Part shown: piece after piece, positions 1,735-29,052 of the stretch
Position numbering within the stretch: the first letter of the stretch is position 1
Layout: each line of letters opens with the position of its first letter
Virus record (IMG/VR): IMGVR_UViG_3300050190_000042
Coordinates: 1-39,828 of that record
Strand: one strand, 5' to 3'
DNA: 39,828 bases
Source: a virus
Taxonomy: Duplodnaviria; Caudoviricetes
Position numbers and translations under genes: made by a program
The notes under the pieces: model-generated
The model's database searches: none
Told to the model about the DNA's origin: nothing
What the model saw: only the letters and a program-made list of their open reading frames with translations

Positions 1735-1904
1735 GTAATAATTATCTGATTTTTTGTATAAGTTAGTTAAAAAGGGCAACATTATTTATAATTCTTTGTA
1801 AGAAATATTTGTTAATTTTCCCACCAGCTATTTCATTTTAACACAAGGGGTGTATAATTATGGACAAGAAGAAACGGTTTAAAATGATAAGGAGTGATAA
1901 GAGT

Positions 1905-2093
1905 ATGTATTCGGTAGCAACAAAAACACAAGGGGCAACTGTTTCTGACAAATTGTTAGAGTTACGAAATCGCGCAATTATTAGGATGAATTGTGCCGAT
2001 TTACGTCACACTCCCAATTTGCATGATATTACGCAGGCGAATGAAAATGCTGCGGATTTGGCAAAAGATCAATACAAGACAATAAAGGAGTAA
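1905..2093 (+). CDS. Putative antitoxin (unknown family)
   Basis: AAGGAG RBS; ends 7 bp upstream of a PemK/MazF-like gene. Confidence 0.45.
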   Translation: MYSVATKTQGATVSDKLLELRNRAIIRMNCADLRHTPNLHDITQANENAADLAKDQYKTIKE

Positions 2094-2100
2094 GTGACAG

Positions 2101-2520
2101 ATGAAATTACATAGGGGCGGAATATGGTATATTCATTTCCCTTATACTTTTGATGTAAATTATCCAAATGGCAAAAACAAATTCGTTTTAGTCTTGCAGG
2201 AAGGTGCCATTTTTAGAGATTATGATGCTGTAACCGTTTTGCTAATAACCACGGATCAAGACTGTAAAGATTATGATACGAATGTTACCATTGAATGTGG
2301 GACAACCAGAATGGCATCTGAATCGTATGCTGTTTGTGCTCAGCCATACACCATTTTAAAAAGTTATTTTGAAATAAACGGGGTATGGTGCGCTGGGAAA
2401 CTATCTCCGGAAAAATTAGATGAAGTTGATACGGCATTATATACAGGACTTTGCATGGGAGTAAATAGTCAAGCAGCAATAGAGGCAGCATATACCAGTT
2501 TCACCGGAACAATTAATTAA
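2101..2520 (+). CDS. PemK/MazF-family toxin-like protein
   Basis: RGGIWY...K..VLVLQ...V.VLLITT...S...C.Q.YTI.K...G.L...LDEVD.AL fits the PemK fold pattern. Confidence 0.7.
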   Translation: MKLHRGGIWYIHFPYTFDVNYPNGKNKFVLVLQEGAIFRDYDAVTVLLITTDQDCKDYDTNVTIECGTTRMASESYAVCAQPYTILKSYFEINGVWCAGKLSPEKLDEVDTALYTGLCMGVNSQAAIEAAYTSFTGTIN

Positions 2521-17781: not shown

Positions 17782-18156
17782 TTATTCGGAGGCCTTTAAA
17801 TGTTTCTCTGCATTTTTACGGGCGCATACTGCATCGCCAAAATCGTCAAAAAATCCTAAATAATGATTTTTCCCATCATGATAAATATAGGCTTGCCATT
17901 TCTTACTTTGAGTTGACCATCTAACTCCGATTACGCCACTTTTATTTCTTTTGCCAGGTTTACAATAAGGAGTTGTACTATTTTTTAGGCAACCGCAAGA
18001 CTTAGTATTGAGAGATACCAAGTCAACAGCAGGGATGTCAATCACATTTCCACAGTCACATTGGCATTTCCAAAAGTAGCTGCCCTGAGCTGTTTTTTTA
18101 CTAACCCTGTACAGCGCAACAAGATGTGTAAAACGCCGTTTTGTTAAATCTTTCAT
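17782..18156 (-). CDS. AP2-domain protein (HNH-AP2 family lacking the HNH)
   Basis: DLT..RF..L...WKCQCDCG...TKSCGC; NKSGVIGV.W...KWQAYI...YLG.F...A..AR..AE. Confidence 0.8.
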   Translation of the reverse strand: MKDLTKRRFTHLVALYRVSKKTAQGSYFWKCQCDCGNVIDIPAVDLVSLNTKSCGCLKNSTTPYCKPGKRNKSGVIGVRWSTQSKKWQAYIYHDGKNHYLGFFDDFGDAVCARKNAEKHLKASE

Positions 18157-18323
18157 TTTTTATATCTTTTATCTGTCGGCCACTCTGTACCCTCTGGTAT
18201 GAGCCAGTCACGGCCTATCTTTTGTGCTGCCGGTAATTTGCCACGCCTTATGATTGATCGCGCTGATGTATCACTGTGGCCGGTCTCAGCCGCCCATCGT
18301 GCGGTAGTGATTAGTTTACTCAT
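18153..18323 (-). CDS. 56-aa excisionase-type HTH DNA-binding protein
   Basis: Read by hand: MSKLITTARWAAETG...IRRGKLPAAQKIGRDWLIP; overlaps both neighbours. Confidence 0.75.
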   Translation of the reverse strand: MSKLITTARWAAETGHSDTSARSIIRRGKLPAAQKIGRDWLIPEGTEWPTDKRYKK

Positions 18324-18720
18324 TTATTAACGTCGCCTCGGCGCTGTCGCGGAGATAATATTCATCATCCTGCTCGCCTGTTTCGCTGTCCTCTTCATAA
18401 ACTTTATTGCCATCAAAATTTAATCGTTTACCATTGTCGATAGCCTTGTCACGGAGAGCTTCCCAAAACGATTCTACGGCTTCAATCGCGTTGTCGGCGA
18501 TAATATCACCGGTTACTAATTCAAGGCTCGAGTAACTATTTTTGTTTGTGCTTACAGATACTTCGTATTTCATGGTTTTATTTTCCTCCATCTCATTGAT
18601 TTTTTCGGCTTTTTTGACATAATCCTCGGCTTGCTCGGTTGTCGCAAATGCAAACATTTTTTTAATGCGTTCAGGGTCTGGGTGCTCCGTTGTTGCGCTA
18701 TAATTAATAACCTTGCTCAT
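18316..18720 (-). CDS. Hypothetical protein: YSATTEHPDPERIKKMF domain plus acidic C-terminal domain
   Basis: AGGAG RBS; internal GGAGG RBS with in-frame ATG at 18573. Confidence 0.7.
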   Translation of the reverse strand: MSKVINYSATTEHPDPERIKKMFAFATTEQAEDYVKKAEKINEMEENKTMKYEVSVSTNKNSYSSLELVTGDIIADNAIEAVESFWEALRDKAIDNGKRLNFDGNKVYEEDSETGEQDDEYYLRDSAEATLINE

Positions 18721-18768
18721 AATATACTCCTGTTGCCTGCCTCCCTTGCGGTGAGGACTTGCGGCTTG

Positions 18769-18993
18769 TTAGCCTAAAAAATGCTTAATTAATTCTGGTC
18801 TGTCTGCTCCACTTGTCAAAAAATCAACTTCGTCCGCTGCAAAATACTTTTTTAACTCGTTAATGGTACTTTTTACAGCGTCACACATTTTTGCACTATA
18901 ACCGACTTTTGCAGCGGCAACATGTGCGTCAAAAGCAACCTGAGCCTTTAAATAATTTGCGAGTGCGTCGGTCTGCTCTTTTGTTAAATCCAT
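18769..18993 (-). CDS. 74-aa hypothetical protein, first gene of accessory cassette 1
   Basis: AAAGGTGG RBS; downstream of promoter at 19037-19065. Confidence 0.7.
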   Translation of the reverse strand: MDLTKEQTDALANYLKAQVAFDAHVAAAKVGYSAKMCDAVKSTINELKKYFAADEVDFLTSGADRPELIKHFLG

Positions 18994-23825: not shown

Positions 23826-23969
23826 TTATTTAGCAGGCTTTAGGTATTCTTCAATTGCTTTTTCTATTATTTTGCTAATTGGTACCATAGTCTTTTCCGA
23901 ATAGTCTTTGAGCTGTTTCACTAAACCTATCGGCAAAGATGTCCCGATTCGCTCTTTATTTTTTAGCAT
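23826..23969 (-). CDS. Ribbon-helix-helix regulator (47 aa)
   Basis: LKNKERIGTSL...L..YSEKT.VP.SKIIE.AI; GAGGTG RBS. Confidence 0.8.
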   Translation of the reverse strand: MLKNKERIGTSLPIGLVKQLKDYSEKTMVPISKIIEKAIEEYLKPAK

Positions 23970-23987
23970 AATTATCACCTCAAAAAC

Positions 23988-24040
23988 ATTATACCACATA
24001 ACACAAGGTATTGACAAGTAACATAACTTTATGATATAAT
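23988..24040. promoter_or_regulatory. Divergent promoters for the RHH and GIY-YIG genes
   Basis: Plus strand TTGACA-18-TATAAT (24011-24040); minus strand TG-TATAAT at 23988-23993. Confidence 0.6.
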
Positions 24041-24058
24041 ATATATGAGGTGAAAAGC

Positions 24059-24889
24059 ATGGAAGAAGAGGCCAATAAGCCATATGGTTTTATTTATATT
24101 ACTACTAACTTAATCAATGGGAAAAAGTACGTAGGGCAAAAAACATATAATAATCGTTGGAAGTGCTACTTAGGAAGTGGGAAATACTTTAAACTTGCGG
24201 TTAAGAAACACGGCAGAGAAAACTTTGTAAAAGAAATAGTTGCTATTGCATACTGCAAAGATGAACTTAACAAGTTAGAAGCAGAATATATAAAAAAATT
24301 CAATGCCGTTCAGTCTGCCGATTATTACAATGTTGCTACCGACAGTTTCCCTTCGTACATCGGGCTAAAGCATACAGAAGATTATAAAATCAAAATGAAA
24401 ATACTTAATGAAGGCAAACTGATGAGCGAAAAGTCAAAAGAAAGAATGAAAGAAAATCATTATGATGTTAGTGGGGAAAATAACCCGAACTATGGGAAAC
24501 ATTGGTCAGAAGAATGGCGTACAAATCATAGCAAAGCAATAAGCGGGGAAAATAATGTTTTATTTGGAACTCACCGCAGTGAAGAAACCAAACGGAAAAT
24601 AAGTGAATCGAATAAAGGCAAAATTTTTAGTGAGAAACACTTGCAAAATTTAAGCAAGGCTCATAAAGGGAAGGAATTAGGAAGCAGTAATCCTAAAGCT
24701 AAAAAAGTAGTTTGTTTAACTGAAAATAAGATATTTGATACTTTAAAAGATGCTGCTGAATATTATAATTGTACAAGTTCAAATATTTCCATGTGTTGTA
24801 GTGACAGAAGCCGTAAGCATGCTGGTAAACTTTCAGATGGTACAAAACTGCAATGGATGTATTATAGTGACTATTTGCTGTTAGTCTAA
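24059..24889 (+). CDS. GIY-YIG homing endonuclease with NUMOD3 repeats
   Basis: GFIYITTNLINGKKYVGQ...YLGSG; NPNYGK / HRSEETKRKIS repeats; NUMOD1-like end. Confidence 0.9.
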   Translation: MEEEANKPYGFIYITTNLINGKKYVGQKTYNNRWKCYLGSGKYFKLAVKKHGRENFVKEIVAIAYCKDELNKLEAEYIKKFNAVQSADYYNVATDSFPSYIGLKHTEDYKIKMKILNEGKLMSEKSKERMKENHYDVSGENNPNYGKHWSEEWRTNHSKAISGENNVLFGTHRSEETKRKISESNKGKIFSEKHLQNLSKAHKGKELGSSNPKAKKVVCLTENKIFDTLKDAAEYYNCTSSNISMCCSDRSRKHAGKLSDGTKLQWMYYSDYLLLV

Positions 24890-26363: not shown

Positions 26364-26375
26364 ACAAGGGCAAGC

Positions 26376-26403
26376 AAAAGCCCCGGATTGCTCCGAGGCC
26401 TTT
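26376..26403 (-). terminator. Terminator of the crRNA-like transcript (possibly bidirectional)
   Basis: Minus strand AAAGGCCTCGGA-GCAA-TCCGGGGCTTTT; G-U pairs favour the minus strand. Confidence 0.75.
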
Positions 26404-26437
26404 ACTTGATGTTTGCGATGTCTAAAAACATGACTAT

Positions 26438-26465
26438 GTTTCAATCCACGCTTTTTTCAAGCGAC
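26438..26465 (-). CRISPR. Solitary type I-C-like CRISPR repeat
   Basis: GTCGCTTGAAAAAAGCGTGGATTGAAAC: GTCGC start, CGCTT/AAGCG stem, GCGTGGATTGAAAC end; no second repeat or cas gene seen. Confidence 0.8.
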
Positions 26466-26470
26466 AATTT

Positions 26471-26499
26471 ATTATATCGCTTGAATTTTAAATTGTCAA
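26471..26499 (-). promoter_or_regulatory. Sigma-A promoter of the solitary repeat
   Basis: Perfect TTGACA-17-TATAAT; repeat begins 6 nt after the -10. Confidence 0.85.
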
Positions 26500-26633
26500 C
26501 ATTTTTCTTCCTTGTTCTCTTTTAATATTAGGTATTCAATTTGTGCGCCCATGCTCCGACGCTCGTGCTCTGCCTGCTTCCGGAGCATTTCAAAGATTAG
26601 ATCGTCTAACCTAAAACTACGGTGTGCTTTCAT
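26496..26633 (-). CDS. Arc-like ribbon-helix-helix protein (45 aa), Aca-like candidate
   Basis: Read by hand: MKAHRSFRLDDLIFEMLRKQAEHERRSMGAQIEYLILKENKEEKC; GAAGGA RBS. Confidence 0.75.
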   Translation of the reverse strand: MKAHRSFRLDDLIFEMLRKQAEHERRSMGAQIEYLILKENKEEKC

Positions 26634-26646
26634 TTAATCATTCCTT

Positions 26647-26886
26647 CTACATGCCTTCTGCGTCGAGCGCAACTTTGAGCGCCATTTCTTCACCAAAATC
26701 TGCAAAAGCCTTTAATGTAGGCAATACCCTTGCCAAATACGCCTCGTTACCTAAACACCCACCTTTGCCTCCCCATCCCAATGCTCCGCGCGCTTCGGCA
26801 TCAAGGCAGCGTGCATTGTTGGCTTTTAACATTTTCAACTTTTTTTCGGCGTTGGCTAATCTTTTCGCAGTTTCGTAGGTTATCAT
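26647..26886 (-). CDS. 79-aa hypothetical protein (Acr candidate)
   Basis: AAAGGTGG RBS; directly upstream of the RHH gene. Confidence 0.65.
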   Translation of the reverse strand: MITYETAKRLANAEKKLKMLKANNARCLDAEARGALGWGGKGGCLGNEAYLARVLPTLKAFADFGEEMALKVALDAEGM

Positions 26887-26987
26887 TTTTAAAACCACCT
26901 TTTAATTATTCCCTTTCGGGTTGGACCCGAATCGGCTGTCCGGGCTATTAGCCGGTATTTGCGATTGTCTCCGTTACTGCGGAGGCA

Positions 26988-27185
26988 TTAAATTATAAAT
27001 ATTTTATGCTCATCATCAACTATATCGTCTATGTCATTGTCCCCATATGTCTCCTTGTATTTTTCGGCCGATGCGATGTAATCCTCGGCTTGCTTAAGTG
27101 TCGCGAATCCAAACATTTTTTTAATGCGTTCAGGGTCTGGGTGCTCCGTTGTTGCACTGTAGTCTTTAATGTTTTCTTTCTCCAT
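26988..27185 (-). CDS. 65-aa acidic protein with YSATTEHPDPERIKKMF domain (Acr candidate)
   Basis: AAGGAG RBS; paralogous to the N terminus of 18316-18720. Confidence 0.7.
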   Translation of the reverse strand: MEKENIKDYSATTEHPDPERIKKMFGFATLKQAEDYIASAEKYKETYGDNDIDDIVDDEHKIFII

Positions 27186-27245
27186 GATCTTCTCCTTGGC
27201 CCGATACTATTTTGCATCCGCGACCTATCTGTTTTCTATAATTAA

Positions 27246-27274
27246 ATTATATCACATTGTTATTACGATGTCAA
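27246..27274 (-). promoter_or_regulatory. Strong promoter of accessory cassette 2
   Basis: TTGACA-17-TATAAT with extended -10 TG. Confidence 0.85.
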
Positions 27275-27317
27275 CACATTTATTTAAAGTAATTAAAATA
27301 TTTTTGGAGGTGGCGGA

Positions 27318-27662
27318 GTGAATAAAGTTTATCAAAAAACCATTGAACAGATTAAAATTGACGGTGAAAATTACGCAAATGAGGGAATGAAAACCGTCTA
27401 TAAAGACCAAAAAGAGGCTTTAGACAAGGTTCATGCCTTTGTTGGAAAACTTTATATAAAATATGCGAAAGATGGCGTACTCAGTTTAACTTCAACGCAA
27501 AAATCAACCGTTACAGCCGAACTAAAAACCTTGTTAAAATCAATAGGCTCTGATTTGGCAAAGTCGGAGGTCGGAAAAACAACGGATATATTAAAAAAAG
27601 TATATGAAGATACTTATTACAAATCGGCTTATGTAATGGATACCGGAGGTAGTAAAAAATGA
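27318..27662 (+). CDS. Minor head protein (MuF/gp7), N-terminal part
   Basis: GGAGGTG RBS; helical; coupled to the next ORF. Confidence 0.6.
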   Translation: MNKVYQKTIEQIKIDGENYANEGMKTVYKDQKEALDKVHAFVGKLYIKYAKDGVLSLTSTQKSTVTAELKTLLKSIGSDLAKSEVGKTTDILKKVYEDTYYKSAYVMDTGGSKK

Positions 27663-28888
27663 GCGAGCCACAAATAAATACAAAATTTGATATTTTAAAG
27701 CCGGAATATGTTGATGCGGCGGTCAATGCAAAATACAAAGAAGAACTATTTAGTGACCGTATCTGGACGAATAAAGCGGATATGATTGACAAATTGCAAT
27801 CCTCAATAGTAGGTGCCATGAAAGGCGACGTAACCATTGACAAAATAGGCCAACAGATTTCAAATACATTTAATTCCACCGCTTATGAAAGTCAACGCTT
27901 AGTAAATACCGAGGTTGCAAGAGTGCAGACGCAGGCAAGCGAGGATATGGGCAGAGATACGGGCGTTGAACAGGTCATGTGGAGCGCAACACTCGAAAAT
28001 AACACATGCGACGAATGTGCGGCTTTAGATGGGAATACATATCCCATTGATGATGCGCCGGATTGCCCTGCCCACCCTGAATGTGTTTGCTGCCTTATAA
28101 ATGTGCCATATGAGGGATGGAGTCCCACAAGTCGGAAAGATAACGAAACCGGAGATATTATAGATTATACGAATTATACAGACTGGGCAAAAGAGAAAGA
28201 CGTTTCTGACAGTTTCGTAACTAACGCTTCCCAACTTCCGAAAGATGATCTTAAAATTATAGATAGCTATTCTCAGCAAGCGTATTCTCACATTAACGGT
28301 TATCTTAGAGGCGGATATGATAACCCTCCTGATTGGGTGGCCGGTTATGCCGACAAATTGGAGACAATTTTAAGCAAATCAAAATTGTCTGAAGATGTCA
28401 GTCTATATCGCGGAGGCTCTTCCAAAATATTTGGAGACCTTACTGATATTATAAAAAGTGACCCAACTCGTGCAATTGGAACTGAAATTACAGATAAAGG
28501 GTTTATGAGCACGAGTAAACAGACAGACGTCGCTGAAAAATTTGTCGGTAAACCTTCAGGTGCTGGCGGGAATCATATAATGTTGGAGATCAAAGCACCT
28601 AAGGGGTACAGTGGGTTGGAACTTGGCAAACTATCATTTCACAGCGAGGATGAAGTTATACTTAAAAATGGGACTAAAATAAAAATAACCGGTGTTGAAG
28701 ATACCCGAAAGACGATTATTCAGCAAAAAACAACTTATAAGGCAGTAAATGATTTAAGCAAACCATTAGGAAATACCCGTTTAAATAAAATGTTTGGTAT
28801 ACAATATGAACAAAAACAAGAAGCTACAATTACGGACGAACAAGTAAAGACTGGATATATTAAATTTATTGGGGAGGTGGTCAAATGA
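27659..28888 (+). CDS. MuF (SPP1 gp7-like) minor head protein fused to an ADP-ribosyltransferase toxin domain
   Basis: FSDRIW, RLVNTE.AR, TC..C..LDG, P.HP.C.C; then Y..IN.YLR, LYRG, KGFMSTS, EDEV (R-STS-ExE). Confidence 0.9.
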   Translation: MSEPQINTKFDILKPEYVDAAVNAKYKEELFSDRIWTNKADMIDKLQSSIVGAMKGDVTIDKIGQQISNTFNSTAYESQRLVNTEVARVQTQASEDMGRDTGVEQVMWSATLENNTCDECAALDGNTYPIDDAPDCPAHPECVCCLINVPYEGWSPTSRKDNETGDIIDYTNYTDWAKEKDVSDSFVTNASQLPKDDLKIIDSYSQQAYSHINGYLRGGYDNPPDWVAGYADKLETILSKSKLSEDVSLYRGGSSKIFGDLTDIIKSDPTRAIGTEITDKGFMSTSKQTDVAEKFVGKPSGAGGNHIMLEIKAPKGYSGLELGKLSFHSEDEVILKNGTKIKITGVEDTRKTIIQQKTTYKAVNDLSKPLGNTRLNKMFGIQYEQKQEATITDEQVKTGYIKFIGEVVK

Positions 28889-29052
28889 GCAAATATATTT
28901 ACGAAGAGGGGGACATATCCGTAAAATCTCCAAAATGTACAAGTTGTGAAGAATACAAAAAAGAGATGTGCAAGATATATGGTAAAAACATACCCAAAAA
29001 AATCAGATATGAATTTGCAGACTGCTCACACCATGTAAAGATAAAACAATAA
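28885..29052 (+). CDS. 55-aa Cys-rich protein, candidate immunity protein
   Basis: GGGGAGG RBS, ATGA overlap with the toxin; CTSC...C.IY...IP...C. Confidence 0.6.
   Translation: MSKYIYEEGDISVKSPKCTSCEEYKKEMCKIYGKNIPKKIRYEFADCSHHVKIKQ

What the first reader, a model, noticed from the sequence alone, without database searches (positions are those of the whole stretch)
26496..27274. Anti-defence-like operon inserted backwards between portal and MuF: two small orphans plus an RHH regulator feeding the solitary repeat
Seen: consensus extended -10 promoter (27274-27246), a 65-aa acidic ORF, a 79-aa ORF, and a 45-aa Arc-like RHH whose stop codon overlaps the -35 of the repeat promoter. Established: acr genes are small, strongly promoted and followed by small DNA-binding aca genes (usually HTH), and such cassettes often sit among head genes. 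Inference: a combined protein + RNA anti-CRISPR locus with new Acr families and an RHH-type Aca.
Basis: partly seen in the sequence, partly recalled or inferred. Interest (0 to 1): 0.82.

Follow-up and report, generated by a model that had tools for sequence, protein, structure and literature searches.

The report
Phage mimic of host CRISPR self-regulator
A bacterial virus from peat carries an inserted cassette whose last gene closely copies the small RNA genes found beside its likely hosts' type I-C CRISPR genes, so it likely turns that immune system down, and three small upstream proteins likely form a self-regulated counter-defence operon whose targets are untested; both tricks are already described in other bacteria.

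Summary
The strongest part is the RNA. It is promoter, one shortened type I-C repeat, a 30-37 nt spacer-like stretch and a terminator. The same anatomy sits upstream of cas5c/cas3 in 20 of 80 Oscillospirales I-C loci, where 17 of 21 such elements match a PAM-flanked site in their own locus (4 of 1659 cross-locus). A model of these host elements finds only the phage element in 278 kb. So it is most likely a Cracr (viral CreR mimic), not a plain solitary-repeat Racr. Its own DNA target was not found. The proteins are weaker: no known family or fold, no known acr neighbour. The 79-aa family also occurs fused to an RHH or an HTH and in a small-gene array, which fits counter-defence. An RHH-type Aca (Aca14) is already published, and no operator is shared by the two promoters. 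Verdict: new member of known kinds; two possibly new Acr families remain untested.

The parts
27246..27274 (-). Promoter P1, consensus sigma-70 type with extended -10
   Evidence: 12 of 12 match plus TG; not tested for activity
27237..27251 (-). 7-bp perfect inverted repeat (1-nt spacer) over the -10 of P1; candidate RHH operator
   Evidence: chance about 0.02 given local composition; binding inferred
26988..27185 (-). ORF65, acidic 65-aa protein; residues 8-45 shared with ORF134 of the second cassette
   Evidence: no relative beyond this phage; low-confidence model
26887..26987 (-). Structured intergenic stretch; 26922-26963 recurs in other peat contigs with different flanks
   Evidence: searches (loose ends in X4, X5; z -1.95), no Rfam family
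26647..26886 (-). ORF79, three-helix protein of a small unnamed family; relatives stand alone or are fused to an RHH or an HTH
26496..26633 (-). RHH45, Arc-like ribbon-helix-helix protein in the aca position, without a C-terminal antitoxin extension
26471..26499 (-). Promoter P2 of the RNA; -35 overlaps the RHH stop codon
   Evidence: -10/repeat junction nearly identical to host CreR genes L247, L249
26438..26465 (-). Shortened (28 nt) type I-C repeat with a 5-bp stem and an intact 11-nt handle
26401..26437 (-). Spacer-like guide (30 nt to the start of the extended terminator stem, 37 nt to its GC core); target not found
26371..26407 (-). Strong hairpin terminator, facing the convergent portal gene
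   Evidence: (97-nt RNA, -37.8 kcal/mol, z -5.2)
17782..18993 (-). Second accessory reverse-strand cassette: ORF74, ORF134 (shares the ORF65 domain), HTH_17 protein of 56 aa, AP2/HNH-type protein
   Evidence: absent from 5 related phage records searched and from the closest complete relative

Best explanation
This is an inserted cassette of a temperate phage whose last gene copies the anatomy of host type I-C regulatory RNA genes and likely makes a guide RNA that would load the host Cascade and steer it onto a cas or defence-gene promoter, while the upstream operon likely makes two counter-defence proteins under likely self-repression by the RHH. Shown by sequence: the insertion, both promoters, the shortened repeat, spacer-like stretch and terminator, and the near identity to host elements that match their own cas promoters. 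Inferred: P2 starts at about the first base of the repeat; Cas5c cuts at the base of the hairpin and leaves an 11-nt handle plus guide; the loaded Cascade binds a TTC-flanked partial match (about 12-18 nt) without cutting, represses transcription and is kept from immune crRNAs. Inferred more weakly: P1 fires on entry, ORF65 and ORF79 inhibit a host defence, RHH45 then shuts P1 off. My odds: RNA processed and loaded by I-C Cascade 0.8; it represses a host cas or defence promoter 0.55; proteins are counter-defence 0.55; at least one is an Acr 0.3; RHH represses P1 0.6, P2 0.15.
For: Insertion: 0 of 24 informative relatives carry it, 14 have portal abutting MuF. Host elements of the same build: 21 in 20 of 80 I-C loci, 17 of 21 with a PAM plus 12-nt or longer seed in their own locus, 4 of 1659 cross-locus; 3 of 3 closest ones lie between cas3 and cas5c with TTC plus 18-nt seeds. 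Model from 15 host elements: one hit in 278,146 bases, this element, E about 0.001. A separate 151-nt peat contig has the same -10 and repeat (35 of 38) behind another -35. Published I-C crlRNA with one repeat is cut by Cas5c to an 11-nt handle and represses a promoter (10.1101/2024.12.27.630466); CracrVA1 has the same promoter-repeat-spacer-terminator plan (10.1101/2024.10.29.618823). ORF79 relatives fused to RHH-like or HTH_3 domains and sitting in a 26-gene array of small genes. Aca14 has an inverted repeat over the -10, as P1 does.
Against: No target for the phage guide: best seed 8 nt in 80 cas upstream regions, no host element with the same seed among 11 GTDB pattern hits, 12 of 401 genomes with PAM plus seed, none beside cas genes and no more than the reversed-pattern control. 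The host is not identified. No known acr, ard or other anti-defence family among the neighbours of ORF79 relatives, and that phage has no I-C repeat. ORF79 is slightly basic. Reverse-strand RHH genes are common here as partners of homing endonucleases. No expression data.
Confidence: 0.58

Rival explanations
1. The RNA is a Racr-type decoy: it is processed and loaded but has no DNA target and works only by titrating Cascade.
For: No target found in any search; the Cracr paper itself files look-alikes without a 9-bp PAM-proximal match as likely Racrs; RacrIC1 lies beside acrIC5 (PMC10651486).
Against: The build is that of host elements that do have targets (17 of 21); the host is unsampled, so a missing target is expected; sequestration alone can derepress a CreR-controlled cas operon.
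Confidence: 0.2
2. The RNA is a CreR mimic, but the three proteins are an unrelated accessory operon or act on a non-CRISPR defence; the two units merely share an insertion site.
For: The RNA has its own promoter, like host CreR genes; ORF79 relatives occur in a phage without any I-C repeat; the ORF65 domain recurs in a second cassette with an HTH and no repeat.
Against: One contiguous 950-bp insertion absent from all relatives; stop codon and -35 overlap; no terminator found between RHH45 and P2.
Confidence: 0.3
3. The RNA is a one-spacer mini-array that aims host Cascade-Cas3 at a competing phage or plasmid.
For: Guide length is close to a full I-C spacer (33-36 nt in B. halodurans).
Against: Best viral match 25 of 35 among 36 seed hits; only chance-level hits in phage and plasmid collections; shortened repeat typical of regulatory elements.
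Confidence: 0.07
4. ORF79 and RHH45 are a type II toxin-antitoxin pair.
For: Best Pfam match of RHH45 is ParD_like, just under cut-off.
Against: Gene order is reversed for most such pairs (own knowledge); RHH45 ends right after the RHH fold; ORF79 relatives stand alone with no RHH beside them in 3 of 3 distinct loci or are fused to different regulators; no toxin family match.
Confidence: 0.05
5. The repeat is a chance by-product of a strong promoter of rRNA type.
For: P2 and the first 10 nt of the repeat resemble rRNA-operon promoters of two Clostridiaceae genomes, 81% over 52 nt.
Against: Those promoters lack the 14-nt repeat tail and are not hit by the host-CreR model (L074-L076); 0 of 100 shuffles.
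Confidence: 0.03

Closest known systems
Cracr RNAs (viral CreR/CreA mimics; Liu et al., bioRxiv 10.1101/2024.10.29.618823)
   Same: Single repeat-like sequence, spacer-like sequence and terminator under a native promoter, as in CracrVA1; often beside acr genes; I-C candidates were predicted.
   Different: Their I-C examples in the text read are two-spacer arrays for Neisseria; none was tested. Here the target and the matching host CreR are not found. Their Table S2 was not seen.
Host type I-C crlRNA/CreR genes (10.1101/2024.12.27.630466; 10.1101/2023.03.10.532045; the Oscillospirales elements found here)
   Same: Same plan and nearly the same -10/repeat junction (L247, L249).
   Different: Phage-borne, no cas genes, no target in its own genome.
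RacrIC1 with AcrIC5 (Camara-Wilpert et al., PMC10651486)
   Same: Solitary I-C repeat downstream of a small protein gene in a prophage.
   Different: [quoted passage not shown]
Aca14, RHH-type Aca (Feussner et al., 10.64898/2026.07.27.740549; PMC13551039)
   Same: Small RHH last in an operon, inverted repeat over the -10, a second unit right downstream.
   Different: Aca14 is 66 aa, from Pasteurella, beside known acr genes, with the same operator at both promoters; here 45 aa, no known acr, no shared operator. Sequence not compared.

Membership tests
Cracr | Encoded by a mobile element away from cas genes | tested here: met
   Phage genome with head, tail, integrase genes and no cas gene among ORFs inspected
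Cracr | Repeat-like sequence keeps the hairpin and handle of the host type | tested here: met
   5-bp stem and 11-nt handle; model hit; near identity to L247, L249
Cracr | Spacer shares at least 9 PAM-proximal bases with a host CreR/CreA or its promoter target | tested here: inconclusive
   Not found in 80 cas upstream regions, 3 closest host elements, GTDB exact pattern scan, 401 genomes; host unknown and probably unsampled
Cracr | Cas-dependent processing and seed-dependent repression | not testable with these tools
   Needs experiment; no RNA run listed
Racr (solitary repeat decoy) | Solitary repeat unit in a viral genome | tested here: met
   One copy
Racr (solitary repeat decoy) | Acts by sequestration with no DNA target | not testable with these tools
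   Absence of a target cannot be shown without the host
Aca (incl. Aca14) | Small DNA-binding protein at the end of the operon | tested here: met
   RHH matches, all under curated cut-offs
Aca (incl. Aca14) | Co-encoded with validated acr genes | tested here: inconclusive
   No close RHH45 relative found, so neighbours could not be surveyed; ORF65 and ORF79 are not known Acrs
Aca (incl. Aca14) | Inverted repeat in the operon promoter, bound and repressed | tested here: inconclusive
   7-bp inverted repeat over P1 -10, p about 0.02; not shared with P2; binding untested
Aca14 family | Sequence homology to Aca14 | not tested
   Aca14 sequence was not on hand
Acr proteins | Inhibition of CRISPR-Cas | not testable with these tools
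   Needs plaque or plasmid assays
Acr proteins | Homology or fold match to a known Acr | tested here: inconclusive
   No E<=0.001 match and only generic helical hits; ORF65 model pLDDT 64
Type II toxin-antitoxin | Toxin always paired with its antitoxin | tested here: not met
   ORF79 relatives lack an adjacent RHH in 3 of 3 distinct loci

The most novel reading that the evidence does not exclude
A three-layer type I-C counter-defence module of a Clostridia phage: two new Acr families that block immune Cascade, a CreR mimic that keeps the cas operon and CRISPR-supervised abortive systems shut while they act, and a new RHH-type Aca; ORF79, which swaps RHH and HTH partners, would be a new marker for finding such loci in Bacillota.
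Probability: 0.25. Interest if true: 0.62.

Novelty: new member of a known kind. Interest (0 to 1): 0.4.

Why it matters
It gives a testable type I-C Cracr candidate from anaerobic Bacillota, where the papers read report no tested I-C example, and two untested small protein families as Acr candidates for the compact I-C system used in genome editing. The side result, that about a quarter of sampled Oscillospirales I-C loci carry a self-targeting regulatory RNA gene, explains why a phage of this group would need an RNA mimic beside protein inhibitors. The principles (Cracr, Racr beside acr, RHH Aca) are published, so surprise is moderate.

Tried and rejected
Rfam: nothing at gathering score in the window; only chance hits at E<=10 over the cassette. 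Pfam, PHROGs, NCBIfam, PADLOC, PDB sequences, ESM Atlas: nothing for ORF65 or ORF79. Fold searches gave only generic helices; an unlisted family is not excluded. Viral scans for the repeat plus guide start: 7 and 8 loci, arrays, other solitary repeats or chance. Guide against the window, IMG/VR, phage and plasmid collections, 401 genomes and 80 cas regions: chance level. Host search: head genes point to Clostridium prophages at about 59-64%, early genes to Oscillospirales at 65-74% DNA identity; no host fixed; 1 and 17 genomes were not scored. Locus scans with the ORF79 alignment stopped at 39 of 64 and 37 of 64 parts. Exact 23-nt scan for the intergenic element: 0. No RNA holder listed. RHH45 against the RHH of P0002: not related (E 5.7). 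A recalled likeness of one neighbour in L019 to Ocr was not supported. No complex prediction was run.

Full report
Setting. The window is a temperate phage genome with a 222-nt end repeat, integrase, SPP1-type portal and MuF. Near-identical DNA occurs in peat metagenomes: 8 of 13 holding runs have half or more of the sampled words, one may be the source. The host is not fixed: named portal relatives are Clostridium prophages at 59-64%, early genes match 12 of 401 Oscillospirales genomes at 65-74% DNA identity.

Observation. Every element named is present at the stated place. The cassette is an insertion. Of 27 portal loci, one is this phage and two end before MuF; of the other 24, 14 have portal abutting the MuF N-terminal gene, 8 have one forward gene there, 2 have an RHH/homing-endonuclease pair, and none has a hit to ORF65, ORF79, RHH45 or the repeat tail. 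In the closest long relative, window 26368-27317 has no counterpart.

The RNA. Five bases after the -10 of P2 comes a 28-nt type I-C-like repeat with a 5-bp stem and an intact 11-nt handle, then 30-37 nt, then a strong hairpin. To see what this build means I took 80 regions upstream of cas5c, out of 89 matches in 82 of 401 Oscillospirales genomes (some regions are cut by contig ends). A strict filter (repeat tail plus a -10 box, at most two per strand) gave 21 elements in 20 of 80 loci. 17 of 21 have a PAM plus a seed of 12 or more (every sixth base free) in their own locus, against 4 of 1659 cross-locus pairs; PAMs TTC 12, TTT 4, CTT 1. The three-PAM set was chosen after a first look; the first, looser test with TTC alone on 60 loci gave 10 of 41 against 2 of 328. 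These are host CreR-type genes. The closest ones (L247, L248, L249; 3 of 75 genomes) lie between cas3 and cas5c on the opposite strand with TTC plus 18-nt seeds 100-128 bp away, and two have almost the same -10/repeat junction as the phage. A sequence-only model from 15 host elements that I picked gave one hit in 278,146 bases, the phage element, E about 0.001, and missed three rRNA promoters; the tail match is partly circular because the host elements were found with a tail pattern. One 151-nt peat contig of depth 3 carries the same -10 and repeat (35 of 38) behind another -35. Against: no target for the phage guide was found anywhere (best seed 8), and the 5' half of the repeat with P2 resembles Clostridiaceae rRNA promoters.

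Mechanism. From the papers: Cas5c cuts I-C repeats at the hairpin base leaving 11 nt (PMC3890593, passages); a single-repeat I-C crlRNA of Neisseria is processed so, represses a defence promoter, and Acr action unleashes abortive infection (10.1101/2024.12.27.630466, passages); viral mimics repress cas promoters and compete with crRNAs (10.1101/2024.10.29.618823, parts 1-2 of 9 and passages; supplements not seen). I infer the same here. Processing, loading and target are untested.

The proteins. ORF79 folds as three helices (pLDDT 83). A full search of 1.84 billion representatives gave 4 relatives at 57-66%: two stand alone, one has a C-terminal RHH-like domain (DUF6290 E 9e-4, under cut-off) and one an HTH_3 (E 1.6e-15). 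Such swapping of regulators is noted for AcrIF25 in the Aca14 paper. In 3 distinct loci the family sits in a co-directional array of small genes; in the complete phage G1454 it has 26 genes, median 97.5 aa, 13 with pI under 5.5, with RadC/JAB, DUF4314, DUF3846 and a twister-like ribozyme. Reading that array as counter-defence is inference; no known anti-defence family was matched and G1454 has no I-C repeat. ORF65 has no outside relative; its residues 8-45 recur, 84% identical as DNA, in ORF134 of a second accessory reverse cassette that ends in an HTH_17 gene. RHH45 has only distant Arc-like relatives. P1 has a 7-bp inverted repeat over the -10 (p about 0.02), as Aca14 operators do (10.64898/2026.07.27.740549, part 1 of 7, passages and section 23). 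P2 has two 9-bp inverted repeats of other sequence, so joint control is not supported. A toxin-antitoxin reading is unlikely.

Known versus new. It works like a Cracr beside an acr-aca-type operon. Cracr membership is met for location and repeat, open for target. Racr beside Acr in type I-C is published (PMC10651486, passages), CreR-like elements were noted for I-C (10.1101/2023.03.10.532045, passages), and RHH Aca is published. Five answered literature searches on these themes showed no report of these protein families or of Oscillospirales I-C CreR in the listings, but the library is partial and supplements were not seen. Earlier AI notes of this scan report similar mimics in other genomes; they are unchecked and lower novelty rather than support the reading. 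Verdict: new member of a known kind, interest 0.40.

Noticed in passing
L167-L249 (Oscillospirales I-C loci): Self-targeting single-repeat regulatory RNA genes upstream of cas5c or cas3 in 20 of 80 loci; 17 of 21 match a PAM-flanked site in their own locus, 12 of 17 with a mismatch at position 6.
   Followed up: yes
window 18993-17782 (-): Second accessory cassette (ORF74, ORF134, HTH_17, AP2/HNH-type) with 10-bp and 8-bp inverted repeats upstream; acr-aca-like; ORF134 has an internal SD before Met50.
   Followed up: partly
window 27659-29052 (+): MuF fused to an ADP-ribosyltransferase domain (PF03496) that relatives lack, followed by a 55-aa Cys-rich ORF; looks like a polymorphic MuF toxin with a possible immunity gene.
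   Followed up: partly
window 26922-26963: Intergenic 42-nt element shared with other peat contigs, two possible crossing helices, no Rfam family; perhaps a ribozyme or regulatory RNA.
   Followed up: partly
window 23826-24889; L037, L043, L044, L045: Divergent RHH / homing-endonuclease pairs are common mobile inserts between head genes of this phage group.
   Followed up: partly
window 1860-2520 (+): PemK/MazF-like toxin (PF02452) with an unmatched 77-aa ORF upstream, between lysis genes and integrase.
   Followed up: no
L132 2562-12450 (G1454): 26-gene array of small unknown genes with twister-like ribozymes and repeated intergenic hairpins; a pool of counter-defence candidates.
   Followed up: partly
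L004-L007, L010: Other phage contigs carry solitary full-length type I-C repeats between head genes.
   Followed up: no
L074-L076: Clostridiaceae rRNA promoters begin with the same five bases as type I-C repeats.
   Followed up: partly
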